Below, piece after piece: positions 6,701-20,000 of a stretch of 20,000 nt of DNA. Position numbers and translations under genes: made by a program. The notes beneath the pieces are model-generated. The model was not told the DNA's origin. It made no database searches and saw only the letters and a list, made by a program, of their open reading frames with translations. Within the stretch, counting starts at the first letter, position 1. Each line of letters opens with the position of its first letter. The stretch is from IMG/VR virus record IMGVR_UViG_3300026408_000032. One strand, 5' to 3'. The stretch is from an uncultured virus (IMG/VR IMGVR_UViG_3300026408_000032) (lineage: Duplodnaviria > Heunggongvirae > Uroviricota > Caudoviricetes).

Positions 6701-6705
6701 AGGTT

Positions 6706-7107: not shown

Positions 7108-8051
7108 CGTTTGCGAAGGCGTACAACAATTATATCGGCGTCGGTAAAGAAGTGCCGATGCTAGGCGAACAGATCCTTCACGAACTCGGCGTCCGCCAGT
7201 GCATTGAGATTGACGATAGCGTAATGCTTGCGGCGAAGGCTGTTATTTTCAAAGCCGACGCTAAGCCTTCCTATATCAACCGCCACCTCTACACGCCTGT
7301 TCATGCCATCCTGAAGATGGCGCTCAAGGAAGCGACGCCTCAGTTGACGCGGCCGGAGGGTCACAAGGACTCGCCAGAAATTCAAATCCCGGATCAGAAC
7401 TGGTTCCGCGTTGTCGGGCAGCAAATGGGGATCGACACCCGCGCCCTGGTTTACTTCCTGACGATCCACGGCCGCCGTCTCGGGGATGCCCTCGGACGCA
7501 TCCCAGACAACTTCGACCCGACGGCCGGGACGCTAATGATCGGCAAGACCAAGACGGGCAAGCCGCTATTCATCGATCTGCATCCGACCGTGGTCGAGGC
7601 GTTCAAGCTGATGCCGGACTGGCAGAAGCGCCGCTGGCTGTTCAGAGACGGACCCAACTCCGGCAACAACGTCCGGAAGGACATTCTCGTCGCGGTGCTA
7701 AAGGCCAACGGCTTCGACCCAAAAGACTTCCAGCGCAAGGTGAAGGGGCGGCCGCCGCAGATCGATGAGGCGAAGGCCCGCGACTACATCCGCGAGCACG
7801 GCTCGGTGCCCTACTTCGGAACACATGCCATCGGGCGGCATTCAGCGGCGACGCGAGCTTTGCTCGCCGGGTACAGCCTGCTCCACGTGCAGAAGATGTA
7901 CGGCTGGGACACCATCGAAATGCTCTCGCGCCGCTATGGTCACTTGGCGAAGGCTGAGACGAATGCGGCAGTGCACAAGGTTGCAGATGCGTTCATTGAA
8001 CAAATTGAAAACAAATCAAAGAAGGAAAGCGGCGAACGCGATGGATATTAG
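6876..8051 (+). CDS. int: Prophage tyrosine integrase
   Basis: Arm-binding-like N-terminus (YWVARG...ERSLG); catalytic R (HGRRLGDAL), K (KTKTG), H...RH (HAIGRH), GW, Y (RRYGH). ATG 6876 preferred over 6831. Confidence 0.92.
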   Translation: MQGYRSKLKPVKRRKKTKEGAETYWVARGFIPVRRRDGTFARRRIERSLGGHTAKERQAEVDKLNQAFEDAAQNISLTFAKAYNNYIGVGKEVPMLGEQILHELGVRQCIEIDDSVMLAAKAVIFKADAKPSYINRHLYTPVHAILKMALKEATPQLTRPEGHKDSPEIQIPDQNWFRVVGQQMGIDTRALVYFLTIHGRRLGDALGRIPDNFDPTAGTLMIGKTKTGKPLFIDLHPTVVEAFKLMPDWQKRRWLFRDGPNSGNNVRKDILVAVLKANGFDPKDFQRKVKGRPPQIDEAKARDYIREHGSVPYFGTHAIGRHSAATRALLAGYSLLHVQKMYGWDTIEMLSRRYGHLAKAETNAAVHKVADAFIEQIENKSKKESGERDGY

Positions 8052-8550
8052 AAAAGTGAATGATGACGAGATTGATGCGTTGCTACGCCGGTTTGCTCCG
8101 ATACCTAGTCTTCATGACATTTGCCAGGTCTATGGCGTGTACTGCGAAGGCTATGTGAAGATTGGGTACGCTGCTAACTTAGCTAGCCGCGTCGGAGTAT
8201 TTCGAACGTCGTGCCCCTTTCCTGTTGAGGCCATTTTCAGTCAGTCGGCAATGCGGGCGTCGGCTGTCGTGACGGAACAGCTACTTCATCTCCACTTCGG
8301 AGAACACCGCCATCGCGGCGAATGGTTCAAGATCGAAAAGACTGCGCTGCAAGAAATTGCCAAGGGCATAGATAGGGCCATCAGGTGGACGCAGGCCGCA
8401 CATTCTAGGTTGATCACACAAGACGCCGATTACATCCAAACCTACCAAGACTTCGAGCGGGCGAATTGGCGGCCAGAGGGGGCAAAAGTGGGGCTGCGCG
8501 GGTGGGGCCTGAAATCAAAATCTATAGATTTACCCAACAAAACATGCTAA
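8041..8550 (+). CDS. GIY-YIG nuclease, T5orf172/MUG113 family
   Basis: VY...YVKIGYA.NL..R....RTSCP...E..LH..F..HR.RGEWF; ATG 8041 overlaps the integrase 3' end. Confidence 0.88.
   Translation: MDIRKVNDDEIDALLRRFAPIPSLHDICQVYGVYCEGYVKIGYAANLASRVGVFRTSCPFPVEAIFSQSAMRASAVVTEQLLHLHFGEHRHRGEWFKIEKTALQEIAKGIDRAIRWTQAAHSRLITQDADYIQTYQDFERANWRPEGAKVGLRGWGLKSKSIDLPNKTC
8479..8508 (+). repeat. Putative integrase arm-type binding repeats (GGGGC x3; GTGGGGC x2)
   Basis: GGGGC 8479, GTGGGGC 8488 and 8502, about 70-100 bp from the att core. Confidence 0.45.
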
Positions 8551-8577
8551 AAACCGTTTGCCATATAATCAATGAGA

Positions 8578-8629
8578 CGCTGCCCTCCGAAGGCGAAGGT
8601 CACAGGTTCGAATCCTGTCGGGTGCGCCA
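8578..8629 (+). tRNA. tRNA-Arg(CCG) 3' fragment = att core (not a complete tRNA)
   Basis: GCC-CTCCGAA-GGC anticodon arm, ACAGG-TTCGAAT-CCTGT T-arm, CGGGTGCG-CCA end; no 5' acceptor strand or D-arm upstream. Confidence 0.9.
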
Positions 8630-8679
8630 CCTAGCTAACAAGCAGCATTTCCTAAGAAAAACGAACGTTTTTAGCCCGA

Positions 8680-8709
8680 CGGTACCTTGTGGAGGTTCCT
8701 TCGGTACCT
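8680..8709 (+). repeat. Second set of putative arm-type repeats (CGGTACCT / AGGTTCCT / CGGTACCT)
   Basis: Direct repeats at 8680, 8693 and 8702, about 50-80 bp right of the att core. Confidence 0.45.
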
Positions 8710-8954
8710 AGATTTCATTTTTTTGGACCGCGTGAAGTTTCCTGTCAATCGCAAGCTCTGTCGAGGCTCGAAATGTGCTCGGCCATCGGGACGAAGATGA
8801 CGAGTTGCACCGATAGTCCCTTAGAGAACGGAGGGCACTCTCAGTTTGACGTTACGCCTCCTCAGGCGAACGACAGAACGCACGTCGCGAGCCAACAGTA
8901 ACGAAAAGCGACCTCGATAACATGGAGGGGCTCTATGGGAGCCCTTCTCGCGTT

Positions 8955-9281
8955 TTAGAAGTGCCAAGCTCGATACAAGATCGTGATAGCAGCAGCGAAC
9001 ACAACGAGACGGTACGCAAATTTAAGGAGGGTGGCGAGCAGCTCTACGTTTGCGGACTTCGGCACATCCCGAAGCTTCTCAAAATGCTCGTTGAGTGCTT
9101 GGTGCTCCAAGTAACGCTCTCGAAGGGTAGTTAGCTCTTCTGGTGTCGGTTCCCGCGCTCCCGGCGTTTGATCACGTACAGCACTGAACTTCTGCGCGAT
9201 GACATCAGCAATTCTTGAGAACCGCATATGGGCGACGTAATTACCGCCACCGACCGTCCACAACTGCTTGCTCTCGCTCAT
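8955..9281 (-). CDS. Hypothetical protein with C-terminal transmembrane helix
   Basis: 108 aa; hydrophobic C-terminus LVVFAAAITILY. Confidence 0.6.
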   Translation of the reverse strand: MSESKQLWTVGGGNYVAHMRFSRIADVIAQKFSAVRDQTPGAREPTPEELTTLRERYLEHQALNEHFEKLRDVPKSANVELLATLLKFAYRLVVFAAAITILYRAWHF

Positions 9282-9294
9282 CTGTATCCACCGA

Positions 9295-9708
9295 TTACCT
9301 TGGTCTACACTTTCCCATAAATGTAGCCTTCGGGGAAATCTTGAGAGTCAGTTCACTATTGGCGACCCTATATCCACCGACCATCTCGGTCTTACCGAAA
9401 TCCCAAAAGACGAACATCGCCAACGTGCCATCTCCAACTCGCTCAAGTCTGGACACATAATCTGCCAGTCCGGCGTTATCCAACTGAATCCTCAGGTCTC
9501 CGTCACTCTCTGACCAGAGATGAACCCACCAGCGGTATTCGGAAAGTTCTACATGAGCAATATCGGCTCGTGAGGGAGCAGTGCCGTGGAAGTTCAAATT
9601 GCCGTCGCACGTAAGCGCGGTAGTCGTCGTGGAAAAATTGAACACAGCGAGCAAGGCTATTCCGGCCAAAACTAATAGGCACAGCACTAGCTTCGCAGCT
9701 GACTTCAC
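9295..9708 (-). CDS. Hypothetical exported/membrane-anchored protein
   Basis: N-terminal hydrophobic helix, LTCDG...GKC Cys pair, GAGG RBS upstream. Confidence 0.75.
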   Translation of the reverse strand: MKSAAKLVLCLLVLAGIALLAVFNFSTTTTALTCDGNLNFHGTAPSRADIAHVELSEYRWWVHLWSESDGDLRIQLDNAGLADYVSRLERVGDGTLAMFVFWDFGKTEMVGGYRVANSELTLKISPKATFMGKCRPR

Positions 9709-9774
9709 GGTCGCACCTCATTCTTTAGGTCATGCAAAGGCGCTGATCTAGTAACCGGCGAATCTTGTACAAAA

Positions 9775-10713
9775 CTAGTATGAGGGTTCGCTAGGCTTAT
9801 CCTTCTTGCGGGTTCCTCGCCCAGAGCGGACTGCCTGCTCAACTACGCCTTCGCCGGGAGAGATAATGGTCTGGACGTTCGCATTACCTAGATTCTTGTG
9901 AATCAAGCTGGTGGCTGTCACGCCGGTGCGCTTTGCTTCGTTGAAAAGCTCTTGAAGCTTTTCTCCAGAAATGGTCTCGCCATCAGGAGCCATGATCATT
10001 GTACTAAGAGAAAGCGTCCCTCGCTCTGCATCGGTGATCGAGCGACCATGTTCGATTAGCAATTCTGGAGCGACCTCATGCAACAAATCACGCATTCCTT
10101 CGCCGCCCGGATTTACTCGCTTGATCAGGTCTGGCGCGGAGCGTTGGGCTTCGAGATCAATTAAGTCTTCATCTGTAAATGGTACGTGGAAATCGTTGTA
10201 CCGAATGAACGGCAGGCGGTTGACCCTCATTTGAAAGTGATAGTGCGGCTTCTGTGACTCGGGATTATTCGTATCGTGCCCAGCGTAATCATTCTCGCTA
10301 CATGAGAATGACCACTCGAATTGCTTATATCTGATTGTCTCTTCAATAAGCTTGCCCGTACCTTCTTCTGGGAGATCGTTTATATTCTGCGCCCTTACAT
10401 CTTCGTTTGCGACCCACCGAAGATAGCAGGACAGGTGGCGGTACCCGTACGCCGTAGCGACAGCTAGAAAGTCATTCTTCGTGAAACGGGGCGGCTTTAA
10501 GAGCCAATGATAGCACGGCATGATTCTGTAGAATGAGTTCAGCTCAGCTAGACACCAGTAACAGCGGCCGTCTTTGAACGCAGTGCTGAACTCAGCGTGC
10601 TCTTGCTGCGCCTGCTTTACACCTTCTGCATTTCGCTCGCTAATCTGTTCAGGCGTCAGACCGCGAATGTCTGAAGCGAGCTTCTTCCCTTCCGACTTTG
10701 GGTCTTGGCACAT
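9775..10713 (-). CDS. Hypothetical protein (CxxC and PHYHF motifs), candidate defence/cargo gene
   Basis: 312 aa ORF with CYWC, CYHW and KPHYHFQM; family not recognised. Confidence 0.75.
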   Translation of the reverse strand: MCQDPKSEGKKLASDIRGLTPEQISERNAEGVKQAQQEHAEFSTAFKDGRCYWCLAELNSFYRIMPCYHWLLKPPRFTKNDFLAVATAYGYRHLSCYLRWVANEDVRAQNINDLPEEGTGKLIEETIRYKQFEWSFSCSENDYAGHDTNNPESQKPHYHFQMRVNRLPFIRYNDFHVPFTDEDLIDLEAQRSAPDLIKRVNPGGEGMRDLLHEVAPELLIEHGRSITDAERGTLSLSTMIMAPDGETISGEKLQELFNEAKRTGVTATSLIHKNLGNANVQTIISPGEGVVEQAVRSGRGTRKKDKPSEPSY

Positions 10714-10773
10714 TGTTCGCTCTGATAGCGGTATGATTATCGGGAGAAATCCAAAGCCTTGTTTCGTCGTCTA

Positions 10774-10998
10774 TCAGCCGAAGAGAGACCGAATCCAATA
10801 GGGCATTCCGAAAAGCAACGAGTACGCCCCAACGGGCGCTGTTATCAGAAAAAATGGCCCTGCGAACCCAAGAAAAAACATAATGAAGCTCTTCACGTTG
10901 ACTGCCATCCAAAGCCAGTAGACTTCCCCGACAGTGAATAGCGCCATTAGAGCGAACGCCCCGGCCACGCCAAATGTCTCTTTGAGTTTCGTAAGCAT
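10774..10998 (-). CDS. Small integral membrane protein
   Basis: 74 aa, almost entirely hydrophobic; GGGG RBS upstream. Confidence 0.7.
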   Translation of the reverse strand: MLTKLKETFGVAGAFALMALFTVGEVYWLWMAVNVKSFIMFFLGFAGPFFLITAPVGAYSLLFGMPYWIRSLFG

Positions 10999-11301
10999 GT
11001 GTGCCCCCGTGCATCACGAATCGCCCATGCTGTAGAGTACGGGGGATTGGGAGCATATGTCGTGAAGCGATAGTCGTGTTATCCACTGGTGCTGGCTATC
11101 GCCTTTAAAAATTACCTCATCGTGCCTTTCAGCGTGCAACGTACTCAGAATTAAATTGTGCGTTCGACTCGTCCAAAAGCCTGCGCAAGCTCTCATACAC
11201 TTAATATGTCTGTGAACAGAACGATTCGCCCGACATACTGTCGGCGGTCACCCATCCAATCAGCTCTAATTGGCGTGGTACAATTGAGAGAGGCTAGAGC
11301 T

Positions 11302-11835
11302 ATGAATTGGTCGCGAGGGCTCTTTCGAATTTGGATCGCTTTTACCGTAGTGTGGGTTCTATGTGTCGTTGGTGGTGCCTATAATGGTTGGCCCCAAAAG
11401 CAAGAGTGGACTCAGACTTCCGGCGCAAGCAATCCACGATCAGAACAAAGACCCGTTCGGCTTACCTATGTCGGTCCTGATGTCGGATCGGCACGCAAGC
11501 ACATAGTTCAAGCCGCTGATGGCGCAAAGTACAGCATTGAAGCACCCGAGGGTGCAACGACAGAGCAAATCATAGCATTCGCACAAAAGAACATTCCAAC
11601 GACGAACGCGACCCAATCAATATCGAAGCCCGCAAATGTTTTTGACCGATATGACACACCGCAGTCTGGTCCTCGGGAAAACTACAAATCGCCTACTGAG
11701 ATTGACACTAAGTATCGTGAAGCTGTGTTAATTCACTTAGCGCAGGCTTCAATGGCAGCTATCTCAGTACCGGGAATCTTGTTCTTATTGGGTTGGACAC
11801 TGCTATGGATTAGTCGAGGTTTTAAGAAGACATAG
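11302..11835 (+). CDS. Two-TM membrane protein with an extracytoplasmic loop
   Basis: MNWSRGLFRIWIAFTVVW N-terminal TM and PGILFLLGWTLLWISRGF C-terminal TM; GAGG RBS before ATG 11302. Confidence 0.8.
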   Translation: MNWSRGLFRIWIAFTVVWVLCVVGGAYNGWPQKQEWTQTSGASNPRSEQRPVRLTYVGPDVGSARKHIVQAADGAKYSIEAPEGATTEQIIAFAQKNIPTTNATQSISKPANVFDRYDTPQSGPRENYKSPTEIDTKYREAVLIHLAQASMAAISVPGILFLLGWTLLWISRGFKKT

Positions 11836-11846
11836 CTGGGGTGCTC

Positions 11847-12254
11847 ATGGGAAATTGGTTAAATCTCACCGGGCTGTTATACGACATCACCGGCGCATAT
11901 TTTCTCGTAAGAGCCGTCGTCTTCAATTCGAAAGAAAAAATTGCACAGCAGGTCGCTACGGCATGGAATTATAACAAGCATCTTATTCCGGCGGTCGTAG
12001 AACAAAGACTTGAGGGTGTGTTAGGGCTGATGTTGCTCGTGCTCGGGTTTATCCTGCAAGGATTAAGCGATTTTTGGGGCGGAGAGCGCGAAGAATTGCT
12101 TTTCGGTCTCGGACTCTTGGCAGCAATTTTACTCACTTATCGCCTGTCATCTCGTCTATTGATTCGTATCGGCACCGAACGAGTGATCGAATTTATCGAA
12201 GAGAAAAAACAAAAAGCTCAGGGAGAGGGGAAATCGAAGAACAATCCTGCGTAG
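11847..12254 (+). CDS. Multi-TM membrane protein
   Basis: Three hydrophobic segments (GLLYDITGAYFLV; GLMLLVLGFILQ; LLFGLGLLAAILL); likely co-transcribed with the upstream gene. Confidence 0.75.
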   Translation: MGNWLNLTGLLYDITGAYFLVRAVVFNSKEKIAQQVATAWNYNKHLIPAVVEQRLEGVLGLMLLVLGFILQGLSDFWGGEREELLFGLGLLAAILLTYRLSSRLLIRIGTERVIEFIEEKKQKAQGEGKSKNNPA

Positions 12255-12281
12255 TGCCTGAGTAATGGATCACGTCGGTGG

Positions 12282-12512
12282 TCAGCTGGCATTTTTTGTC
12301 ATCATGTAGAAACGACATAGCTCCATCCACAACAGCATCTTGCCTTTGTCCGATGTTGAGCTGGCGTAGAACATTGATCCGTTACGCTCGACTCCGATCA
12401 CAAGCACATCAGTGAGTTCGGCCTCTTCGGCGGCTTTCAGAACGTCGAGGGGTGGTGCTGGTGCGTAAGGATTGTAACCGTCGCCCTTTGGCTGTTCACT
12501 GGCATCGCTCAT
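12282..12512 (-). CDS. Small phage-type hypothetical protein
   Basis: VLKAA...LTDVLVIG...G..FYASS..D...LLWME pattern; AAAGGA RBS favours the MSDAS start. Confidence 0.7.
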   Translation of the reverse strand: MSDASEQPKGDGYNPYAPAPPLDVLKAAEEAELTDVLVIGVERNGSMFYASSTSDKGKMLLWMELCRFYMMTKNAS

Positions 12513-12662
12513 TTCATTATTTCCTTTTCCAATCACACAATGGGTCTCGCGCTAGCGTGGCGTTGTCCAAGTAAACCCCAACAAACAATCAACCTCAACT
12601 CGCCACCTGCACGAGGGCACGCACGTTCGCGCCCTGTGGTGTTGCGACCAACGAAGATCAAA

Positions 12663-12953
12663 ATGAAAGAAACACCAAAAGTCTACTACGCAGACGGCAG
12701 ACCTCTCAACCACTCGGTCGAAGTAACTCGCCAACTATGGCCGGTACTCCAAGACGTGAAGAAACTCGAAGCCGAACTCCTAGACCACGAGCGAAAGTAT
12801 CTGAATGAACTCGCTCGCCAGATCACGGAGCGAGGTTACATAGAAAGTGCCAACGCTGGGAGATGGGCAGAAAACACTCTGCAAGCAGTAGAGCAACGAC
12901 GTCTCAAGGCGGCAAAGATTGCTACACAGAAAAAGGCTCTCCCCAATGCGTAA
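12663..12953 (+). CDS. Hypothetical protein
   Basis: Start MKETPK inferred; first gene of the co-oriented + strand module. Confidence 0.6.
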   Translation: MKETPKVYYADGRPLNHSVEVTRQLWPVLQDVKKLEAELLDHERKYLNELARQITERGYIESANAGRWAENTLQAVEQRRLKAAKIATQKKALPNA

Positions 12954-13173
12954 CACAAGAAGAGGTCGTAGAAGCCGCCAATCTCAAGAGGCTCTGGACT
13001 CACTTCACTATCGCAGCGTCTCAGCAAAGTCGCGACCGACGGCAATCACATTCAAAGGCGATCACCTCAAGCGCCAAAAGTTGTTGGACACCAAATCGGT
13101 AATCTATGGCGGCTGTGTCGGTATCCGCGCCGATGTCCACTTGAAGCGACATGGGAGGTTGAACCGTGGCTGA
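12946..13173 (+). CDS. Small basic hypothetical protein
   Basis: 8-nt overlaps with both neighbours (ATGCGTAA, GTGGCTGA). Confidence 0.45.
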   Translation: MRNTRRGRRSRQSQEALDSLHYRSVSAKSRPTAITFKGDHLKRQKLLDTKSVIYGGCVGIRADVHLKRHGRLNRG

Positions 13174-13939
13174 TAGACCTTCACCGAAAGCCAAGCGCCT
13201 CGACGATACCGGACATAGGGCCGGCTGGGCGAAGTCCCCCTTCGTCAACATGAGAAATCAGGTCGTGGGGACGTGGCATGTCGTGGAGTATCTTTACGCT
13301 CTCGACCAAGCGACCTTGGACAGCGATTGGACCGAGCACTTTTGGCAGTGTCGTTGCGTTCAATGTGGAACGGAAGCGATCTTAGAACGACGTTACATTC
13401 GTGGTCGTTCTCAAAAGAAGTGTCCCGTATGTGTCGCCAGCCAGAAAGCTGAAAGGGTACGGCACGAGACCTTGAAGAAACTTCGAGTGAAACCCCAGGG
13501 TCGAAAACCTAAAGTCGATTGGGCAGAGATCAGGCGACTGACTCACGAGAAGACCGCCATTACCGAGATTGCTAAGCAGCTCGGATGCGCAACAGGAACG
13601 GTCGTAAACGCTCAGCAACGTATGGGCCTCAAGAGACCGCGCGTTTCGGTCAAGCAATACAAGGAGACGCTGCGAGTTCCCGTCGAAGTTCAGCGAGGGA
13701 AGGCAGCTAAGCGTCGCCGCGTAGAGAAGCTCGAAAGGCTGGTCTCAGGTAAGACCACGTGGAAGCATCTCAATGCTAACGGTCGTGTCGTGAAGTACGG
13801 CACCAACGAAGAGCGCATGGCTGCACGTAGACCTACAGAGGCTCAGAGAAAAGCTAGGCGTGAAGCCTATCGTCTCTCGAAGGGTCTTTCTGCCGATGCT
13901 GTTCTGAAGCGAACTGGGCGACCTCGTAAATATGCGTGA
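13166..13939 (+). CDS. Basic DNA-binding protein: Zn-ribbon + HTH + AT-hook-like tail
   Basis: WQCRCVQCG...KKCPVC; ITEIAKQLGCATGTVVN HTH; C-terminal KRTGRPRKY; GGAGG RBS. Confidence 0.75.
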   Translation: MADRPSPKAKRLDDTGHRAGWAKSPFVNMRNQVVGTWHVVEYLYALDQATLDSDWTEHFWQCRCVQCGTEAILERRYIRGRSQKKCPVCVASQKAERVRHETLKKLRVKPQGRKPKVDWAEIRRLTHEKTAITEIAKQLGCATGTVVNAQQRMGLKRPRVSVKQYKETLRVPVEVQRGKAAKRRRVEKLERLVSGKTTWKHLNANGRVVKYGTNEERMAARRPTEAQRKARREAYRLSKGLSADAVLKRTGRPRKYA

Positions 13940-13960
13940 ACCTGAGGTGAGCTTCGGGTT
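13939..13960 (+). terminator. Hairpin right after the stop codon (possible terminator)
   Basis: AACCTGAG / TTCGGGTT stem with two G-U pairs; poor U tail. Confidence 0.3.
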
Positions 13961-14444
13961 GTGTGCAGAGTGGCTTTAGGTGAAGTCAAAAATTCTACCG
14001 GAAAAATTCGCGTGGCAAGTAGACAAGGGCGCGGTACGACTTACCCCGGTAGCCCGGTCCGTTTCCATCTGAGACCAATCTGAGCACAAACGCACTTCCG
14101 ATTAGAACTCACAGAACGCAGCTCACCTTCAGAAACTCGCAGCTCACTCGAAGCTCTCATTCAGCTCGACACCACGACAGCATGGGGGGACTTCAAGCGG
14201 CGCACTGCGCTACCGAGCTGCCGTCGGTCGCCTCTAAGTAGGTTGCACATAACAACTCTGGAATTGACTCAGGAGGGGCGTTCGCTCTCGACCTCAATCA
14301 GCTTCGGAGCAAACGCGCCGACCGCGCCTCGTTGAAATTCAGGGCATCTACGGGTCTTCTGAGAGCTTTCGATGGAACCTCGGTCGAATGGCCTTGGTGA
14401 GACCGCAAGTGGACGCGAGGTGGCTTTGGGTTGCACCGGCGGAA

Positions 14445-14464
14445 TTTCCGGGACGTCCCGGAAA
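14445..14464. repeat. Perfect 20-bp palindrome TTTCCGGGACGTCCCGGAAA
   Basis: Read directly; self-complementary over 20 bp. Confidence 0.85.
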
Positions 14465-14600
14465 ATGAGCCGTGCGAACACCATTGTCACCGCCCTCTGT
14501 CACTGACCTGAAGAAACCCGATGCAACTCAAGGGGCCATACTGGACACAGAGTCTATTTGGTCCTTTGCTCCGTATATGCGAAACACGACCAATCAGGGG

Positions 14601-14733
14601 CTTCTCATGGAATACGCATTCTGTGAGAAGTCTCTCGTTTGGCCCAAAATCATTGAGTCAAATTGACTCGGGATTCTTGACGGTCGTCCAGACTTCTCAC
14701 ATTTTCGTCGAAGCAATTTCGAAACGTGAGAAC
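14601..14733. promoter_or_regulatory. Multi-box inverted-repeat site upstream of the recombinase (putative res/operator)
   Basis: Four TGAGAA boxes in alternating orientation; perfect 12-bp IR 14622-14633 / 14690-14701 around GAGTCAA-A-TTGACTC (14655-14669). Confidence 0.6.
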
Positions 14734-14756
14734 TCCAGGGCATCTTCGAGGGCACC

Positions 14757-15314
14757 ATGAAACAGGCACGAACACTCACCGACGCACGGCACGCGCAGGC
14801 GCTCAAAGCACTAGACCATCCACGAGACCGGCTCATGTACCTACTCAGTGCACGAGCTGGCCTTCGAGCTGTCGAGATTGCAGGACTCAAGTGGGACCGC
14901 ATCGACTTCGACGAGAGAGTGCTTCGTTTGAAGACCACGAAGGGCAGGAAGCCACGAGCTGTTCCGATTGCCTCGGAGGTCTTCGACGCTCTGAAGCAAT
15001 ACGAAAAGCACTCTGGTCGCCATAGGTCCGGTCTCGTCTTCGTGAACACGCACAGCCGCCCAGGGCAACCACTGACGCCCAACAGTATCGCTGCATGGTT
15101 CCGCGACCTCTACACGCGACGTCTCGGCTGGGACGGCTATTCGAGTCACTCAGGACGGCGCACATTCTGCACGAAGGTCGCTCGCAAGATCACTGAAGCT
15201 GGAGGGTCGCTCAAAGACGTCCAGGCACTCATGGGCCACGAGAGCCTTCAGACGACCTCGCGCTACATCGACACCGATCCCGAAGCACAACGCAGAGTGG
15301 TCGATTTGATTTAA
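14757..15314 (+). CDS. Small tyrosine recombinase (catalytic domain only)
   Basis: Full catalytic set: AGLRAVEI (R), TTKG (K), HSGRRTF (HxxR), LMGH (H), TSRYI (Y); 185 aa with no arm- or core-binding N-terminal domain. Confidence 0.92.
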   Translation: MKQARTLTDARHAQALKALDHPRDRLMYLLSARAGLRAVEIAGLKWDRIDFDERVLRLKTTKGRKPRAVPIASEVFDALKQYEKHSGRHRSGLVFVNTHSRPGQPLTPNSIAAWFRDLYTRRLGWDGYSSHSGRRTFCTKVARKITEAGGSLKDVQALMGHESLQTTSRYIDTDPEAQRRVVDLI

Positions 15315-15343
15315 CACAGAGAAACGGCAAGTCAGCTCTAGGT

Positions 15344-15378
15344 GCGGCTCGGGGAAACTCGGGCCGCTTCGCGTTTTT
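15344..15378 (+). terminator. Intrinsic terminator after the recombinase
   Basis: GCGGCTCGGG-GAAA-CTCGGGCCGC 10-bp stem with GNRA loop, followed by TTCGCGTTTTT. Confidence 0.7.
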
Positions 15379-15468
15379 GCGCCTCTCTCGGTCCACCTAG
15401 ATGGGTCCGAGCTAGGACAAAGCGTACATTATAACAAAACAATTCCAAAGCAACTACGAGCAAACACA

Positions 15469-16152
15469 ATGAAGCACCCTTTGTTTCCCGAGGGCTGCCC
15501 GTTGGAGATCAACGACCATGTGAATCTGTTCCGAAAGAACCACACTTGGACTGGTCATCTTCTGAGGCGGCTCGGCACCAATCCAACTCAAGAGAAATTT
15601 GTAGCAATGGAGCACGATCTAAAAACTGTCGCCCTTCATGCCTTCGAGTACGCACTGCCATTCGACAAGAGCGTGAAGTTCACTGCGGTCGGCATCAGGT
15701 TGGTCTCGAAGGAAGACGTCGGGTACGACCGAGTAGCAATTATTCCGACTGAAGTTCTCATTCCCATGTGTCGCGCTGGAATGCCTCTGCGCTGGTATCT
15801 GGCTAGAAACGATTATCCCAATTTGTTCCTGTACTGGCAGACCGCAGACGTGAAGTCGAAAAAGCGGATTTGCACGTCCGTACCCCGTCTATTGTTCAAT
15901 GGTCCGACAGACAGACACGTTAGGCCAATCTGGTCGCCGCTCCTCTTGCATCCCAAGGCGTGGGTCGTTCGAAAGAGCAAGCGACAGGGCAAGCCAAACA
16001 GAGACGATCTACCGGCGCTTCTGCGTCTTCACAAAATCTATCATGAGCGCGTGAAGGGCCACTCTTGGTCCCCTCTGCGCGACGCTGAGAAGGTCTTGGT
16101 GCGACCGGAGGCGATCAACTTCGAGCACTACTGTACTCCGTCGAAGCGGTGA
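15469..16152 (+). CDS. Hypothetical protein
   Basis: 227 aa ORF between the recombinase terminator and the promoter repeats; no recognised motif. Confidence 0.7.
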   Translation: MKHPLFPEGCPLEINDHVNLFRKNHTWTGHLLRRLGTNPTQEKFVAMEHDLKTVALHAFEYALPFDKSVKFTAVGIRLVSKEDVGYDRVAIIPTEVLIPMCRAGMPLRWYLARNDYPNLFLYWQTADVKSKKRICTSVPRLLFNGPTDRHVRPIWSPLLLHPKAWVVRKSKRQGKPNRDDLPALLRLHKIYHERVKGHSWSPLRDAEKVLVRPEAINFEHYCTPSKR

Positions 16153-16205
16153 CAAAAGTCGAGAGTGTGGTGGCGCGACCTGCCGCCCCTCTCGAAGTGC
16201 TCCCC

Positions 16206-16277
16206 AATTGTCACCCACTTAAGGAAATACAATTGTCACTCACTTAAGGAAGAGGATTGTCCCCACCTAAAGGAATA
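16206..16277 (+). promoter_or_regulatory. Three tandem 23-bp repeats resembling T3/T7-type single-subunit RNAP promoters
   Basis: AATTGTCACCCACTTAAGGAAAT (16206), AATTGTCACTCACTTAAGGAAGA (16231), GATTGTCCCCACCTAAAGGAATA (16255); 15, 18 and 15 of 23 ungapped matches to T3 AATTAACCCTCACTAAAGGGAGA. Alternative reading: iterons. Confidence 0.65.
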
Positions 16278-16591
16278 GACCAGCTCTCATTGCCGGTCTC
16301 TGCCGATTATTTTTTCTGGCGGACCTATTTTCGTGAGCCAGATTCCGGCCAGACCCGCCGTCCATTGCTCACAGCATTAGGTCTTTGAGTTTATCGGCGG
16401 GACGACCTGAAGCTCTTACTCGCTTCGCTCGCGCTTCTACGACCATCCAAGATCGCCTTCTCATCAGCACACTCGAAGCCTCGCTGCGAAAACGCTCAGG
16501 GGACTTGAAGTTGTGCGCAGAGACGTCGCTTCCTCGATTTCAAAATAAGGGTACGATTTCCTAATAGGCACCCTAACCGCGAGCAAACGCT

Positions 16592-16640
16592 AAAATTGTG
16601 CAGTTCTCCATATAAGACCTATAGGCAGATGCACAAATTT
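16592..16640. repeat. AT-rich inverted repeat in the putative origin region
   Basis: AAAATTGTGCA (16592-16602) / TGCACAAATTT (16630-16640), one mismatch, 27-nt spacer. Confidence 0.6.
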
Positions 16641-16808
16641 CAATTCTCTCCTGTTGGCCTGATTTGATTGGTCTCCCGGCGCAGCCGCTCAAGGCGAGCT
16701 TGGGACCTGTCGCCAGTAGGTTTTAGGCACCTACTTCAAACAATCCCAGACGGCACTCGCGAAGTTCGCTTCGTGAGGTGAGCCCGTCGCATCTCATGGA
16801 AACAACCA

Positions 16809-18815
16809 ATGGACTTTTTGCAGACGGCTAACGCCGCCTATTCGACCACGCTTGCCACGCTCTCAGATCGCGGAATGCGTCCGACATCACAGCACAGTCG
16901 TGCCCTTCACTCGCTATTGGGCACAATGTCCTACATCTTCCAAGGCAGGAGCCCAAAGACTGCTTCTCTGTCTTCGCTGTCGCCGGGTATGGCAAAGACC
17001 ACTGCACTCGTTTCGTTCATCAATCACATTACAGCGAATCCCGGCGAGACAACCGAAGACGGCCACAAGTTCTCAGATGTCGGTATTCTCGTTTGCATCA
17101 ATACGCTTGACGAAATCGAGGCGTTCGCTTCTCAGCTCGACCCTGCAAGACTGTGCGTGTGGGTAGGTCGTGAAGGCGAACTTGAACAACGCTGTGCCGC
17201 TCTCGGCAAGATCACCAAGCCGACAGACGCTCAGATACTCGTCACAACACATCGCCGCATAGAGATCGAACTGAACACTGCGGACGGTCTCAGAGACTTC
17301 GGGGATGCGTCGAGCCTAGCCTTCCAGGGAGAGCTGCGTCGTCTAAAAGTTTGGGACGAGGTCTTTCTGATGGGGACGCCGGTCGTCTTACCTCTGAAAG
17401 AACTTCGCCGCGCTGCCCCGTACTTGCGAGAGTTTGATGCAGAAGCCGGTAACACGTTGGACTTCGCTGCAAAGATCGCTCACCACCTGATAGAAGCTGG
17501 CAACGACAGCGTCGCTTGGACGTTTACAGACGTATGGCGCAAGCACAAGCTCGACCTCGAAGCAATCATTGAGCATCTCAGGCGAGACCGCAAGATTACC
17601 GATGGCCACCTAGAGTCACTCACCGACATCTTCAAGGCGGTCGAGTACATCTCTGGTCGCAAGGTAATCATCCGGTCAGACGGGAATGCTGTTGGTAACT
17701 CCGTGCTCACATACGAGCCAACAATTCCGCAGTCGTTTCTGCCAGTAGTGATCTTAGACGCATCAGGTCGCAAGGGCATCAGACGCACTTACGACAACAT
17801 GGTCGCGGACAAGAAACTACACCGTCTCGAACCAGAGGTACCCAAGTCCTACAAGAACTTCGCCATCGACGTCTGGCACAAGGGTGGGGGCAAAGCGTCA
17901 TTCATCAGTAACTTTCAGCATCGCGTTGAGGGCATTGCAAAGTGGATCGTCGCTCGCGTTCCAGATGGCGAGAGATGCCTTGTCATTCAGCACTTGCCAG
18001 ACGGCCTCAGTGCTGGACAGCAAAGGGAGAAGCGTAAGAAGTACTTCCGACCTGTCATGCCAGACCTGTCTGCTGCGTTGGTTGCTTATCTTCAAACGCA
18101 TCACCCTATGTTCGACGTGGATCGTCTCGCTTTTACGACGTGGGGGCAGCATCGCGGCCAGAACAAGTGGTCTGACTACGGGGCAGTGGTCGCAGCAGGA
18201 ACACTCTTCAAGCCCGACAGCGTTTATGAAGCTACCTATCGCCTCTCTCGTCGCTTCAAGCCCGAGCGTGGTCTGCTCAAACAGCACTCGTTATCAGACT
18301 TCAAAATCGGTGAGTACGCCGACGACCTGCTGCAAGGGCTAGGTCGCATCAGAATACGGAAAGCATACCGAGGCGACTCGACAGTTTGTCCACCCGCTGT
18401 TGCGCTCGTGGTCGCTTCGACAAGCTCGAAGATACCTGAGCACCTCGGTCAGTGGTTTCCAGAGGCTCAAGTTCGGCAAGTGGTCTTGATGCCCGAAGCA
18501 GACATCGACGGCACTGCTGGTCGAGTGTTCGCGTACCTAAACAACTGGCACAAGCGGTCGGCTGTCGGAGCGTTTCTCAAGTTCAGAGACATTCAAGCTG
18601 CACTTGGGGTTAGCTCCAAGGACTTCCGACAGAACGTGCTGCGTAACAAGACACTCGAAGCGAAGTTACTGGAAATGAAGATCGTCAAGTTCTTCAAAGA
18701 CGCGAGTTCGAAGTATGCGCAGGGCTGGCAAATCACTTCGATCATCGACAGCACTCGTGAGCAACTCGCAGACGAGCGTTCTTCGTGCGCGTCTGTCTAT
18801 GGCTTCGCAGCGTAA
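16809..18815 (+). CDS. Divergent SF2 helicase-like protein with C-terminal wHTH; putative replication/origin-binding protein
   Basis: Motif I SPGMAKTT, Ia ILVCINT, Ib ILVTTH, II KVWDE, III ILDAS, V RGQN, VI QGLGRIRIR; C-terminal FRDIQAALGVSSKDF. Confidence 0.75.
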   Translation: MDFLQTANAAYSTTLATLSDRGMRPTSQHSRALHSLLGTMSYIFQGRSPKTASLSSLSPGMAKTTALVSFINHITANPGETTEDGHKFSDVGILVCINTLDEIEAFASQLDPARLCVWVGREGELEQRCAALGKITKPTDAQILVTTHRRIEIELNTADGLRDFGDASSLAFQGELRRLKVWDEVFLMGTPVVLPLKELRRAAPYLREFDAEAGNTLDFAAKIAHHLIEAGNDSVAWTFTDVWRKHKLDLEAIIEHLRRDRKITDGHLESLTDIFKAVEYISGRKVIIRSDGNAVGNSVLTYEPTIPQSFLPVVILDASGRKGIRRTYDNMVADKKLHRLEPEVPKSYKNFAIDVWHKGGGKASFISNFQHRVEGIAKWIVARVPDGERCLVIQHLPDGLSAGQQREKRKKYFRPVMPDLSAALVAYLQTHHPMFDVDRLAFTTWGQHRGQNKWSDYGAVVAAGTLFKPDSVYEATYRLSRRFKPERGLLKQHSLSDFKIGEYADDLLQGLGRIRIRKAYRGDSTVCPPAVALVVASTSSKIPEHLGQWFPEAQVRQVVLMPEADIDGTAGRVFAYLNNWHKRSAVGAFLKFRDIQAALGVSSKDFRQNVLRNKTLEAKLLEMKIVKFFKDASSKYAQGWQITSIIDSTREQLADERSSCASVYGFAA

Positions 18816-18867
18816 CTCTCTCAATACCCAAACGATCAACGAAAGGTATTCACAACGAGGACACACA

Positions 18868-19257
18868 ATGAACCTCAAGAAATTCACTCAATCTGAACGG
18901 ACACTGAAGCTCGGCAAAGAGCGCGTCCAGTATCACAGCGAGCACCCCGAGACGACTAGAGGCGGCGTTGGTAGCGGTCGCCGTCGATGGGATGGGTCTG
19001 CGCCTAGCTTCACCGACTACGCGGCGATAAAGTATGAGACGTCTACTCAAAGTGTGCAGGCATACCTCGCTCGATATTCTGCTCTCGGTATTGACGTTTT
19101 GAAAGCCGTCATCGGCACGACCTTCGACAGAGGAAGTATGCTAGACACACTTGCTCTTATGCCGCCCGAAGATCGTTTGCCGTACATCAAGCGGCGAGCA
19201 ATCCCTATTCACAAGCGAAAAGATGTCTGCCGAGTTCGGTTTCCAGAAGCGGTCTGA
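18868..19257 (+). CDS. HTH DNA-binding protein resembling the C-terminal half of phage ParB-like proteins
   Basis: ER......Y...HPET..G...SF..YAA.K..TS.QSVQ..LAR...LG.D.L....GT.FD.G..LD.LA pattern; GAGG RBS before ATG 18868. Confidence 0.65.
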   Translation: MNLKKFTQSERTLKLGKERVQYHSEHPETTRGGVGSGRRRWDGSAPSFTDYAAIKYETSTQSVQAYLARYSALGIDVLKAVIGTTFDRGSMLDTLALMPPEDRLPYIKRRAIPIHKRKDVCRVRFPEAV

Positions 19258-19627
19258 GAAGCTCGCTTCGCTCTCTGATAACCCAGCGCCAAGCACGAAG
19301 ACCATAGTAGCTGATTACAACACCGAACTTCACGACAAGTGCAAGCAATCGGCCATCCTGGTCGATCAAGCCATCTCAGAATGGCAAGCACATTACCGCG
19401 TGAAGAACTTCGACACTCCCGAGAATTGGCGCTTCTGGCATCCATACTTCGTCGTTTGCGACAAAGACGGTTTCAGACCCCATGCGGTCGTGCCGCCTGA
19501 CGACCTCGTGGATGTGTTCGTGACGGCTCGGGAACTTCAGTTTTCGGTCTTCGACCTACAAATGCTCTTGACCCCGTTCTCGTCTCAGACAGAGCGGGTC
19601 ATTCAACACCTGAGACGGGCGGCGTAA
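19223..19627 (+). CDS. Hypothetical protein
   Basis: ATG 19223 overlaps the upstream gene; start uncertain. Confidence 0.6.
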   Translation: MSAEFGFQKRSEKLASLSDNPAPSTKTIVADYNTELHDKCKQSAILVDQAISEWQAHYRVKNFDTPENWRFWHPYFVVCDKDGFRPHAVVPPDDLVDVFVTARELQFSVFDLQMLLTPFSSQTERVIQHLRRAA

Positions 19628-19707
19628 GCTGCCCGCTTCATTGCGCTCGCCGTTGCCGCTCTCTAGCAGGGCGGCGAGTTAGCTAACTTCAAAAGGAGAA
19701 CAGCCTA

Positions 19708-20000
19708 ATGGCCGTTCAATCGTTCCAATCGTATGTGCCCCCTTCGACGGATACTTCGTACGGAACAAATACCAATTTCCTTCCCGTTGCTCCCGCTGCC
19801 CGCGATTACTCCAACACAGTCTCGCGAGTTCAGGTGACGGCACCTGACCCAACGAAAGTTGAAATCGGCGGATTCGTCACCACGAAAGAGGCCGCATATG
19901 CTGCTGGTCTCATTTCATTGGACGACGTGCATTCTGGACCTGTCGCCACACAAGAGGGCGCACGGCATGAGATTGCACACCGAGAAGCGGAACAGGTTGC
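19708..20000 (+). CDS. Hypothetical protein, 3' end outside window (MAVQSFQSYVPPST...VEIGGFVTTKEAAYAAGLI...)
   Basis: AAGGAG RBS, ATG 19708, frame open to the end of the window; GC-rich hairpin upstream (19646-19678). Confidence 0.75.
   Translation, partial: MAVQSFQSYVPPSTDTSYGTNTNFLPVAPAARDYSNTVSRVQVTAPDPTKVEIGGFVTTKEAAYAAGLISLDDVHSGPVATQEGARHEIAHREAEQV

What the first reader, a model, noticed from the sequence alone, without database searches (positions are those of the whole stretch)
12663..20000. Candidate satellite of a T7-like (Autographiviridae) phage in an alphaproteobacterium
Seen: a compact co-oriented module of Zn/HTH protein, phage-end-like non-coding tract, small tyrosine recombinase, unknown ORF, three T3/T7-like promoter repeats, origin-like region, helicase-like Rep, ParB-type HTH and unknown ORFs. 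No RNAP, terminase or structural gene is visible in the window. Known: enterobacterial 'T7 islands' have an Int-family gene upstream of 2-3 tandem T7-like promoters, no RNAP and no virion genes. Inference: the element stays silent until a helper single-subunit RNAP turns on its replication genes, then borrows helper capsids through a mimic of the genome end. I do not know of a characterised alphaproteobacterial example with this helicase.
Basis: partly seen in the sequence, partly recalled or inferred. Interest (0 to 1): 0.9.

Follow-up and report, generated by a model that had tools for sequence, protein, structure and literature searches.

The report
Island wired to T7-like phage polymerase
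A 14.6-kb mobile island in a soil bacterium has no virus-building genes, but it carries three copies of the switch sequence read by the RNA polymerase of T7-like phages and a likely copy of their DNA-packaging helper, so it probably lies silent until such a phage infects and then exploits it.

Summary
Identical metagenome contigs extend the window and show a 14,618-bp island (window 8630 to about 23230). A 17-nt direct repeat of the tRNA-Arg(CCG) 3' end flanks it, and an empty site exists in another sample. The island has its own integrase, a small tyrosine recombinase and an SF2-type helicase whose relatives are often fused to primase domains. I found no RNA polymerase, capsid or large terminase gene.

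The three 21-nt repeats at 16206-16275 match the predicted promoters of the temperate T7-like Rhizobium phage TRX32-1 (18 of 21 bases). A matrix built only from that phage's 7 sites ranks them 1-3 in 23.9 kb. Beyond the window lies an 84-aa ORF with sub-threshold similarity to the T7-type small terminase gp18 (PF11123).

Other islands with this helicase carry T7-like promoter arrays of other sequence classes, one SP6-type. Some also carry gp18-like ORFs and defence cargo.

Best reading: a satellite or hijacker of a T7-like phage, switched on by the helper's polymerase (confidence 0.55). Transcription, replication and packaging are untested. No helper phage was found, and the "genome-end mimic" has no support.

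The parts
8581..8629 (+). attL: the 3' 49 nt of a tRNA-Arg(CCG) gene. Its last 17 nt (8613-8629) are the direct repeat shared with attR.
   Evidence: Aligns with the intact tRNA-Arg(CCG) of L001. The 17-nt perfect repeat lies at L003 107-123 and 14725-14741. ARAGORN finds no whole tRNA in the window.
8630..12536 (.). Left arm of the island: about 9 orphan ORFs on both strands, several with membrane-like segments. Possible cargo.
   Evidence: Pfam, PHROGs, PADLOC and NCBIfam give nothing except phrog_11040 (unknown function) for 12282-12536. Relatives carry defence systems at this position.
12663..12953 (+). 96-aa ORF, unknown function.
   Evidence: No family hit.
13166..13939 (+). 257-aa DNA-binding protein with a Cys-pair zinc-ribbon-like segment and an HTH_7 domain. 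Candidate regulator.
   Evidence: PF02796 HTH_7 E 1.8e-5.
13940..14756 (.). 817-nt non-coding tract rich in inverted repeats: a perfect 12-nt pair at 14622-14633 / 14690-14701 and a palindrome near 14655-14669. Candidate site for the small recombinase. Not shown to resemble a phage end.
   Evidence: No Rfam match. No match to TRX32-1 DNA.
14757..15314 (+). 185-aa tyrosine recombinase with the catalytic domain only. It sits where relatives have a serine resolvase, so it is probably a resolvase-type enzyme.
   Evidence: PF00589 E 1.1e-28. 326 homologs, those listed mostly 180-197 aa. Resolvases in L072, L073, L026 and L038.
15469..16152 (+). 227-aa ORF, unknown function.
   Evidence: Only phrog_32950 (unknown function, E 4e-4). 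The Atlas gave nothing usable.
16206..16275 (+). Three tandem T7-like (single-subunit RNAP) promoter-like sites at 16206-16226, 16231-16251 and 16255-16275. Predicted starts are at G16223, G16248 and G16272, all reading rightward.
   Evidence: Repeat family. 18 of 21 bases match a TRX32-1 predicted promoter. The TRX32-1-only matrix ranks them 1-3 at 24.7, 19.9 and 11.8 bits; the next best is 5.7 and the largest of 100 shuffle maxima is 20.3.
16276..16808 (+). 533-nt leader and candidate origin: a hairpin at 16277-16299, a T-run at 16310-16315, and an imperfect inverted repeat at 16593-16602 / 16630-16639 around an AT-rich spacer.
   Evidence: Sequence. A similar inverted repeat lies in the leader of L072. 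No sigma-70-like site on the + strand. The origin function is inferred.
16809..18815 (+). 668-aa SF2-type helicase-like ATPase, the island's replication protein.
   Evidence: Invariant G60/K63, D183/E184 and Q509/R513/R517. 1966 representative relatives. 13 of 18 relatives scanned carry an N-terminal PriCT_2, with Prim-Pol or RepB_primase in 9. Foldseek's best hits are XPD/DinG, E 7e-7, but TM is only about 0.15.
18865..19627 (+). Two overlapping small ORFs (18865-19257 and 19223-19627), unknown function.
   Evidence: No family hit. 'ParB-type HTH' not confirmed.
19708..20000 (+). Start of a 255-aa ORF that runs to window-equivalent 20475. Beyond the window lie the gp18-like 84-aa ORF (L003 12714-12968, + strand), the 419-aa integrase (L003 13346-14605, - strand) and attR (L003 14725-14741).
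   Evidence: The 255-aa ORF has a 29%-identical homolog in L072. gp18-like ORF. Integrase: PF00589 E 1.5e-10, phrog_1 E 1.5e-30.

Best explanation
This is a 14.6-kb integrative island, inserted at the 3' end of a tRNA-Arg(CCG) gene in a probable alphaproteobacterium, that is wired to the transcription machinery of a T7-like (Autographiviridae) phage.

Shown by computation:
- Exact ends and an empty site in another sample.
- Its own integrase, a small recombinase and a helicase.
- Three tandem sites that fit the promoter set of a temperate Rhizobium T7-like phage.
- No RNAP, capsid or large terminase gene.

Inferred mechanism:
- The island's rightward operon (leader, helicase, four or more small ORFs, gp18-like ORF) has no evident host promoter, so it stays silent.
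- When a cognate phage infects or is induced, the phage's single-subunit RNA polymerase fires from the three promoters.
- This transcription expresses the helicase. As at the T7 primary origin (recalled: tandem phage promoters followed by an AT-rich stretch), it may also prime replication in the leader.
- The gp18-like small-terminase homolog then either directs the helper's large terminase to island DNA, giving transfer in helper capsids (a satellite), or blocks helper packaging.
For: Boundaries and mobility:
- L003 is 100% identical to window 8507-20000 and extends it by 3880 nt.
- A 17-nt perfect direct repeat marks both ends.
- A contig of run X4 joins L003 106 to 14725, skipping 14,618 nt with 17 shared letters.
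- attL is a tRNA-Arg(CCG) 3' fragment.

Promoters:
- Dataset S1 of PMC11880802 lists 7 predicted promoters for phage TRX32-1. That record is Autographiviridae, 'induction from lysogen', with an RNAP gene.
- The TRX32-1 21-mer finds only 16206-16226 in the window, and 0 of 200 shuffles give a match.
- The reverse search finds 2 TRX32-1 promoters, and 0 of 100 shuffles do.
- The matrix scan ranks the three sites 1-3.

Packaging link:
- The 84-aa ORF has PF11123 as its only Pfam hit (E 1.1e-4). Its two homologs give 2.6e-4 and 2.7e-4.
- The same family is hit by the TRX32-1 gene next to TerL (2e-19) and by SP6 TerS (6e-14).
- phrog_891 'terminase small subunit' scores E 1.3e-3.
- hhalign of island-family against phage gp18 gives probability 67%, E 5e-5.

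Family pattern:
- T7-like promoter arrays lie upstream of helicase homologs in L037, L026, L038, L032, L012, L009, L027 and L066.
- The L009 site matches 7 SP6 promoters within 3 mismatches.
- gp18-like ORFs lie next to the helicase in L033, L016, L017 and L025.

Absences:
- No TRX32-1 RNAP, MCP, portal, TerL, DNAP or gp4 homolog in 86 loci.
- No ssRNAP in 11 host genomes; the positive control found it in 4 of 4 phage records.
Against: - No transcription, replication, excision or packaging data exist.
- No circular junction was seen in the four runs laid. These are contigs only, which drop rare forms.
- No phage with the island's exact promoter variant (ATTGTC at -16 to -11) was found. The exact pattern gave 0 viral contigs, and none of the 34 matches to a looser pattern has it.
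- Every gp18 signal is below Pfam's cut-off (22.6 against 27.5 bits). The fold search gave no hit at E <= 0.001.
- The integrase is on the opposite strand, so these promoters cannot express it.
- In at least 50 of 59 non-redundant relatives no promoter-like site was detected. Enrichment is modest: 9 hits against 2.5 expected, p 0.001.
- The closest genome relative, L072, has only one partial site 1.9 kb upstream.
- The TRX32-1 promoters are themselves predictions from a paper, not mapped starts.
Confidence: 0.55

Rival explanations
1. Phage-sensing defence island. The phage-RNAP promoters act as an infection sensor (and perhaps a polymerase sink) that switches on island replication and anti-phage functions. 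The gp18-like protein poisons helper packaging. The island is not itself packaged.
For: Relatives with promoter arrays carry defence cargo: type I RM plus AbiEii (L037), an OLD-family nuclease (L026), GmrSD (L038), and MT-A70 plus BglII (L073). Arrays of up to 6-7 promoters would suit a decoy. No packaging signal has been identified.
Against: The window island's own cargo matches no PADLOC model apart from one weak hit, mad1 at E 0.002. A replication module, an integrase and a TerS-like gene together are the usual make-up of satellites (recalled). Interference and transfer are not exclusive in known satellites.
Confidence: 0.25
2. The three repeats are iterons or operator sites of a plasmid-like replicon, bound by an island protein, and only look like phage promoters by chance.
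For: They are tandem and regularly spaced (25 and 24 nt), and they lie next to a replication gene and a possible origin. Most relatives lack detectable promoter sites.
Against: The match to an independent phage's promoter set is far beyond chance. Other family members carry arrays of different classes that also fit the T7-type pattern, one fitting SP6's own promoters. All sites point toward the helicase.
Confidence: 0.08
3. Decayed remnant of a T7-like prophage that kept a few promoters and gp18.
For: Temperate T7-like phages exist in Rhizobiales; the TRX32-1 record says 'induction from lysogen'. A gp18-like ORF is present.
Against: No other TRX32-1 gene has a homolog here. The helicase belongs to a large non-phage island family: 1966 representatives and no match in 50,697 phage records. 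The ends are intact, and the island is present or absent between samples. The same architecture recurs in distant relatives.
Confidence: 0.05

Closest known systems
Enterobacterial tandem T7-like promoter islands (Chen & Schneider, Nucleic Acids Res 2006; PMC1380254). The paper is not held.
   Same: 2-3 tandem T7-like promoters, no RNAP gene, no virion genes, an Int-family recombinase, short direct repeats at the ends (17 nt here), and a proposed satellite lifestyle.
   Different: - The host is probably an alphaproteobacterium from soil rather than an enteric bacterium.
- The size is 14.6 kb (recalled range 4-13 kb).
- The full integrase lies at the far end on the opposite strand, with a small recombinase upstream of the promoters.
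- The replication protein is an SF2-type helicase, and a gp18-like ORF is present.
- Whether the proteins are homologous to those of the enterobacterial islands was not tested. L009 has no match in E. coli genomes.
Phage-inducible chromosomal islands (PICI / SaPI) and P4-like satellites
   Same: An integrase with an att site at a tRNA, an own primase/helicase-type replication module next to an origin-like region, no capsid genes, a small-terminase-like gene, and defence cargo in relatives.
   Different: In those satellites, induction works through helper proteins acting on a satellite repressor or activator (recalled). Here the proposed switch is direct recognition of promoters by the helper's own RNA polymerase. 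The helpers of PICI and P4 are not T7-like. No PICI or P4 marker family was hit.
PICMI, the minimalist marine satellites of virulent phages (PMC10803314; only the search listing and the start of the abstract were seen)
   Same: A small island with no capsid-remodelling genes.
   Different: PICMI are in Vibrionaceae. No T7-type promoters are mentioned in the text I saw. Homology was not tested.
T7 primary origin of replication (recalled textbook knowledge: two tandem phage promoters followed by an AT-rich region)
   Same: Tandem ssRNAP promoters directly followed by a non-coding stretch with a T-run and AT-richer segments.
   Different: The leader is only mildly AT-rich (0.36-0.62 per 50 nt), and no sequence similarity was tested. 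Functional analogy only.
Rhizobium phage vB_RleA_TRX32-1 (MW023914, Paadamvirus)
   Same: The promoter sequence class: 18 of 21 identical to the best window site. Its gp18 shares a motif with the island-family proteins.
   Different: There is no other protein or DNA similarity. Positions -13/-12 differ (AC in the phage, GT in the island), so TRX32-1 itself is probably not the cognate helper.

Membership tests
T7-type single-subunit RNAP promoter | A 21-23-nt site with an AT-rich 5' part, a conserved core and an initiating G, matching the promoter set of a phage that encodes an ssRNAP. | tested here: met
   18 of 21 bases match a TRX32-1 predicted promoter. A matrix from its 7 sites ranks the three repeats 1-3. 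TRX32-1 encodes the RNAP.
T7-type single-subunit RNAP promoter | Specific transcription initiation by a phage ssRNAP. | not testable with these tools
   Needs in vitro or in vivo transcription. The runs that hold the island are contigs and show no RNA ends.
Tandem T7-like promoter islands (Chen & Schneider 2006; features recalled) | Two or three tandem T7-like promoters and no RNAP gene in the island. | tested here: met
   Three sites within 70 nt. No RNAP homolog in the 23.9-kb composite. The whole genome is not held.
Tandem T7-like promoter islands (Chen & Schneider 2006; features recalled) | An Int-family recombinase and direct repeats of 17-24 nt at the ends. | tested here: met
   A 419-aa integrase and a 185-aa recombinase. 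A 17-nt direct repeat, confirmed by the empty-site joint.
Tandem T7-like promoter islands (Chen & Schneider 2006; features recalled) | Sequence homology of island proteins to the enterobacterial islands. | not tested
Phage satellite (PICI-like constellation) | Integrase with att sites, an own replication module, and no virion structural genes. | tested here: met
   (integrase and att). (helicase of a primase-linked family). (no structural gene).
Phage satellite (PICI-like constellation) | A gene that hijacks helper packaging, such as a small terminase homolog. | tested here: inconclusive
   PF11123 is the only Pfam hit but falls below the cut-off (22.6 against 27.5 bits). phrog_891 E 1.3e-3. 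hhalign probability 67%. The fold search was not significant.
Phage satellite (PICI-like constellation) | Helper-dependent induction, packaging and transfer. | not testable with these tools
   No helper was identified. No circular junction was seen in contigs.
PF11123 DNA_Packaging_2 (T7-type gp18 small terminase) | Score at or above Pfam's gathering cut-off. | tested here: not met
   21.4-22.6 bits against a cut-off of 27.5 for the island protein and its two homologs. Relatives score 18.5-25.7 bits. I therefore call it gp18-like, not a member.
SF2 helicase | Walker A, Walker B (DE) and motif VI arginines in a two-RecA-domain fold. | tested here: inconclusive
   The motifs are invariant in 7 sequences. 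This protein has no Pfam hit. Relatives hit ResIII only weakly, in 6 of 18. Foldseek's best hits are XPD/DinG at E 7e-7, but TM is 0.13-0.19 on a model of pLDDT 70.

The most novel reading that the evidence does not exclude
The window island is one member of a widespread, undescribed family of satellites of T7-like phages in soil and water Proteobacteria. The family is defined by an SF2 helicase (often fused to a primase) and an integrase.

Instead of sensing a helper protein, members carry arrays of 1 to 7 helper-RNAP promoters as their induction switch and probably as a T7-type origin. They also carry a gp18-like small terminase to capture the helper's packaging motor. Their promoter classes (TRX32-1-like, SP6-like and others) would have diversified to follow the promoter specificity of different helper polymerases. 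They would also ferry defence systems between hosts.
Probability: 0.35. Interest if true: 0.88.

Novelty: new variant of a known kind. Interest (0 to 1): 0.8.

Why it matters
No satellite of the T7-like phages has been characterised experimentally, to my knowledge. My four literature searches found none. The 2006 proposal that promoter-bearing islands are such satellites has stayed a hypothesis confined to enteric bacteria.

This locus gives that idea an exactly bounded, strain-variable example in a different bacterial class. It has a named relative of the likely helper and a candidate packaging gene, and related loci show the same layout.

It would also be a distinct induction principle: the parasite is read directly by the helper's own polymerase, so no repressor is needed. 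This makes several things testable with simple reporter and infection assays:
- how T7-like phages are parasitised or resisted in soil;
- whether promoter specificity co-evolves with such elements;
- whether these islands move defence genes.

Tried and rejected
- Whole genome: none is held.
- The first genome-contig scan, with the single protein, found nothing. The profile scan worked.
- DNA of 12663-20000 against phages: no match. Helicase protein against phages: no match. Against plasmids: two alphaproteobacterial chromids only.
- Rfam on 8000-20000: nothing.
- PADLOC and NCBIfam on 22 island ORFs: only the recombinases and one weak mad1 hit.
- ESM Atlas for the 255-aa and 227-aa ORFs: no usable hit.
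- Exact-pattern search for the island's promoter variant in viral contigs: 0. A looser pattern gave 34 single or double matches. Only the TRX32-1-like proviruses are relevant and none has ATTGTC. L104 is an AT-rich chance match.
- Helper search for the L026 and L037 promoter classes. There were 8 single matches, and none of the 5 records checked has an RNAP. The L037 pattern was too loose, with more than 116 single matches.
- The generic promoter matrix at 10 bits does not discriminate overall: 81 real hits against 90 in shuffles. Only position-specific enrichment is usable.
- The recalled T7 pause motif is not found downstream of the promoters.
- The alignment of the window and L072 leaders is poor apart from one inverted-repeat segment.
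- L009 against E. coli genomes: no match.
- Fold search of the gp18-like model against viral structures: no hit at E <= 0.001. T7-like phage small proteins are among the top, non-significant rows.
- Reads: no circle junction and no inversion joint in the four runs laid. These are contigs from libraries labelled RNA that clearly hold DNA (contigs up to 234 kb), so nothing can be said about expression.
- I considered the 185-aa recombinase to be a truncated pseudogene and rejected that, because its whole family is that short.


Full report
**Observation.**
- ORF 13166-13939 carries an HTH_7 domain (E 1.8e-5).
- ORF 14757-15314 is the catalytic domain of a tyrosine recombinase (E 1.1e-28). It belongs to a family that is short throughout: 326 homologs, and those listed are mostly 180-197 aa.
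- ORF 15469-16152 is an orphan.
- Three tandem 22-nt repeats lie at 16205-16275, spaced 25 and 24 nt. They are the only three copies in the island, and 0 of 200 shuffles reach three.
- The 668-aa ORF 16809-18815 has invariant Walker A (G60, K63), Walker B (D183, E184) and Q509/R513/R517 in an alignment of its 7 closest relatives.
- Two labels could not be confirmed. 'ParB-type HTH' for 18865-19257 has no hit in four libraries. 'Phage-end-like' for 13940-14756 also fails: the tract is rich in inverted repeats but matches nothing I could test.

**True extent.**
- No genome is held for this window, but two metagenome contigs are identical to it. L003 equals window 8507-20000 over 11,494 nt and continues for 3880 nt.
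- The continuation holds the rest of a 255-aa ORF, several small ORFs and a 419-aa tyrosine integrase on the minus strand (L003 13346-14605).
- A 17-nt perfect direct repeat lies at L003 107-123 (window 8613-8629) and 14725-14741.
- The left copy is the end of a 49-nt 3' fragment of tRNA-Arg(CCG). ARAGORN finds no whole tRNA in the window.
- Four runs that hold the stretch were laid on L003. Three have a contig running from position 94 to 14754-14796 (11215 in the third, where a second contig covers 11476-14945), breaking at the repeats.
- The fourth run has a contig that joins 106 to 14725. It skips 14,618 nt with 17 shared letters and 31 letters on the shorter side. This is the empty site.
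- Loose ends show the 5' half of an intact tRNA-Arg in the same samples.
- The island is therefore 14,618 bp, about window 8630 to 23230, and it is present in some populations and absent in others.
- Window 1-8580 is a second, separate integrative element at the same tRNA, with Erf, HNH, an integrase at 6831-8051 and a T5orf172 protein.
- The runs are labelled metatranscriptomes but hold contigs up to 234 kb. They contain DNA and say nothing about expression.

**The repeats are T7-type promoters by sequence.**
- Supplementary Dataset S1 of PMC11880802 (searched by term; main text not read) lists seven predicted promoters for Rhizobium phage vB_RleA_TRX32-1. The best window repeat shares 18 of 21 bases with one of them.
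- The phage record is Autographiviridae, genus Paadamvirus, host Rhizobium leguminosarum, 'induction from lysogen', with an RNAP gene at 317-2893.
- The phage 21-mer, allowing 3 mismatches, finds one site in the window, 16206-16226, and none in 200 shuffles.
- The window 20-mer finds two of the phage's promoters and none in 100 shuffles.
- I built a matrix from the seven phage sites alone and scanned 23.9 kb on both strands. It ranks the three repeats first, second and third at 24.7, 19.9 and 11.8 bits. The next best score is 5.7.
- The maxima of 100 shuffles have a median of 9.1, a 95th percentile of 15.0 and a top value of 20.3. The third site alone is therefore within chance; its position and spacing carry it.
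- All three sites point rightward. By the register of the dataset's 21-mers, the predicted starts are G16223, G16248 and G16272.
- Positions -13/-12 differ from TRX32-1, so the cognate polymerase is probably a relative of that phage's enzyme and not that enzyme itself.
- No σ70-like site lies on the + strand between 13900 and 17000. This is a weak consensus scan.

**The helicase.**
- The protein has no Pfam or PHROG hit.
- A profile of its 7 relatives finds 1966 representative proteins, 617 of them at E <= 1e-30.
- I scanned 18 of these. Thirteen carry an N-terminal PriCT_2 domain, and nine of those also have Prim-Pol (4) or RepB_primase (5). Six show a weak ResIII match.
- The AlphaFold model (pLDDT 70) matches XPD and DinG helicases best (E 7e-7 to 1e-4), but TM-scores are only 0.13-0.19.
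- I read it as the helicase half of a primase-helicase replication protein. No primase domain was found in this island.
- All 15 genome contigs that encode a relative are labelled as alphaproteobacteria or unclassified proteobacteria, and the closest (47% identity) is a Hyphomicrobiaceae MAG. This is the only basis for calling the host an alphaproteobacterium.

**A packaging link beyond the window.**
- The ORF at L003 12714-12968 (+ strand, 84 aa, window-equivalent 21220-21474) has PF11123 DNA_Packaging_2 as its only Pfam hit: E 1.1e-4, 22.6 bits, against a cut-off of 27.5.
- Its two homologs of 85-89% identity give 2.6e-4 and 2.7e-4.
- In the same call, PF11123 is hit by the TRX32-1 gene directly upstream of its large terminase (2e-19) and by the annotated small terminase of SP6 (6e-14). 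It is thus the T7-type gp18 family.
- PHROGs gives phrog_891 'terminase small subunit' at E 1.3e-3.
- Pairwise comparison with the TRX32-1 protein gives 26% identity over 72 residues, end to end, but only E 0.02 in a five-sequence search.
- The fold search found nothing at E <= 0.001.
- Every signal is sub-threshold, so I call the ORF gp18-like and not a member of the family.

**The family shows the same traits.**
- Upstream of the helicase homolog, on its strand, I found:
  - six to seven sites at a 60-nt period in L037;
  - five to seven sites at a 55-nt period in L026;
  - two each in L038 and L032;
  - two to four in L012;
  - two in L009;
  - one each in L027 and L066.
- These sites share the AT-rich 5' part and the core but differ in the middle positions.
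- The L009 site matches seven promoters of phage SP6 within 3 mismatches, the best with one; 0 of 100 shuffles match.
- L072, the closest genome relative, has one partial site sharing 13 consecutive bases with window repeat 2, but it lies 1.9 kb upstream.
- The counter-evidence matters. A matrix made from these sites does not discriminate overall (81 real hits against 90 in shuffles).
- In 59 non-redundant loci not used to build the matrix, only 8 have a hit at 10 bits or more within 1.2 kb upstream: 9 hits against 2.5 expected, p 0.001. The trait is recurrent but seen in a minority, or other promoter classes escape the matrix.
- ORFs directly upstream of the helicase in L033, L016, L017 and L025 have PF11123 as their best Pfam hit (E 1.2e-5 to 2.1e-3). 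Eleven of the 15 ORFs tested have none.
- The four share the motif A.L..AR.FL.DN.I with TRX32-1 gp18. A profile-profile comparison gives probability 67%, E 5e-5, over 41 columns.
- L072 and L073 share the order helicase, then several ORFs, then a minus-strand integrase. They have a serine resolvase where the window has the small tyrosine recombinase.
- Cargo in relatives is anti-phage defence: type I RM plus AbiEii, an OLD-family nuclease, GmrSD, and MT-A70 plus BglII.

**What is absent.**
- None of six TRX32-1 core proteins (RNAP, primase-helicase, DNAP, portal, capsid, large terminase) has a tblastn match at E <= 1e-3 in the composite or in the 86 helicase loci, 826 kb in all.
- PF00940 is absent from the 11 host genomes that could be searched. 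It is found in 4 of 4 T7-like phage records as a positive control.

**Mechanism.**
- Shown by computation: an intact, strain-variable integrative island with its own integrase, recombinase and helicase. It has three sites of a T7-like phage's promoter class facing a rightward gene set that ends with a gp18-like ORF. It has no polymerase or virion genes.
- Inferred:
  - The rightward genes are silent until a cognate T7-like phage supplies its polymerase.
  - Transcription then expresses the helicase and may prime replication in the leader, as tandem phage promoters do at the T7 primary origin (recalled).
  - The gp18-like protein couples island DNA to the helper's terminase for transfer, or blocks helper packaging.
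- Open points:
  - How the minus-strand integrase is expressed for excision.
  - What the packaging signal is.
  - Whether the island's size, about one third of TRX32-1's 42.8 kb, means packaging as multimers. That is a numerical coincidence only.

**Rivals.**
- A defence island that merely senses the phage polymerase fits the cargo of relatives and cannot be separated from a satellite without transfer data.
- Iterons that resemble promoters by chance are made unlikely by the independent matrix and the SP6-type site.
- A decayed prophage is made unlikely by intact ends, the lack of other phage genes and the recurrence of the architecture.

**Comparison and novelty.**
- The nearest described thing is the set of enterobacterial islands with tandem T7-like promoters proposed as satellites in 2006. 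I could not read that paper and rely on recall.
- The defining features I recall are met, except size. Protein homology to those islands is untested.
- Searches of the held library found no later description of promoter-bearing satellites of T7-like phages. The terms were: tandem T7-like promoter / genetic islands; T7-like promoter / satellite / single-subunit RNA polymerase; satellite / Autographiviridae / helper phage / promoter; and T7-like promoters / islands / satellite phage. The library lacks most subscription journals.
- I rate the finding as a new variant of a known kind: a new host class, a new replication protein, a candidate packaging gene and a family-wide pattern.

Noticed in passing
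window 1-8580: A second integrative element sits in tandem at the same tRNA-Arg. It has an Erf-like annealing protein (2-478), an OMP beta-barrel protein (492-1202), phrog_5931 (1235-2467), an HNH endonuclease (3674-4012), a 406-aa integrase (6831-8051) and a T5orf172/MUG113 protein (7765-8550). It ends at the 49-nt tRNA fragment.
   Followed up: partly
window 14100-14756: The tract just upstream of the small recombinase has a perfect 12-nt inverted repeat (14622-14633 / 14690-14701), a palindrome around 14655-14669, and two roughly 90-nt segments about 400 nt apart that share AATTGACTC and a 19-mer. This could be a resolution or inversion site. No inversion joint was seen in the contigs.
   Followed up: partly
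window 16593-16639; L072 about 9670-9715: The leaders of the window and its closest genome relative both have an imperfect inverted repeat of about 10 nt around an AT-rich spacer of about 27 nt, although the rest of the leaders barely align. This is a candidate origin or operator.
   Followed up: partly
L009 1148-1205: Two promoter-like sites of different classes lie 37 nt apart. One is SP6-type (one mismatch to an SP6 promoter). The other has a different middle part. An island with both might answer to two polymerase specificities.
   Followed up: partly
L037 92-8283; L026 5685-7670; L038 2227-3216; L073 3969-5698: Relatives of the island carry defence cargo next to the replication module: type I RM plus AbiEii, an OLD-family nuclease, GmrSD, and MT-A70 plus a BglII-like nuclease. 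The orphan ORFs at window 8689-12536 occupy the same position and could be unknown defence genes.
   Followed up: partly
L001 11897-12109: In the one viral contig that has a helicase homolog, the gene is followed directly by an intact tRNA-Arg(CCG), the same tRNA species that the window island uses as its attachment site.
   Followed up: no
runs X1-X4: Libraries recorded as soil metatranscriptomes hold contigs of 74-234 kb and cover the island evenly, so they contain substantial genomic DNA.
   Followed up: no
window 6831-8550: The integrase ORF of the neighbouring element and the T5orf172 ORF overlap by 287 nt as listed. The true start of one of them is probably further downstream.
   Followed up: no
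L087 (TRX32-1) 3173 and 3230: The phage itself has two identical predicted promoters 57 nt apart, just after its RNAP gene. This is a tandem arrangement like those in the islands.
   Followed up: no
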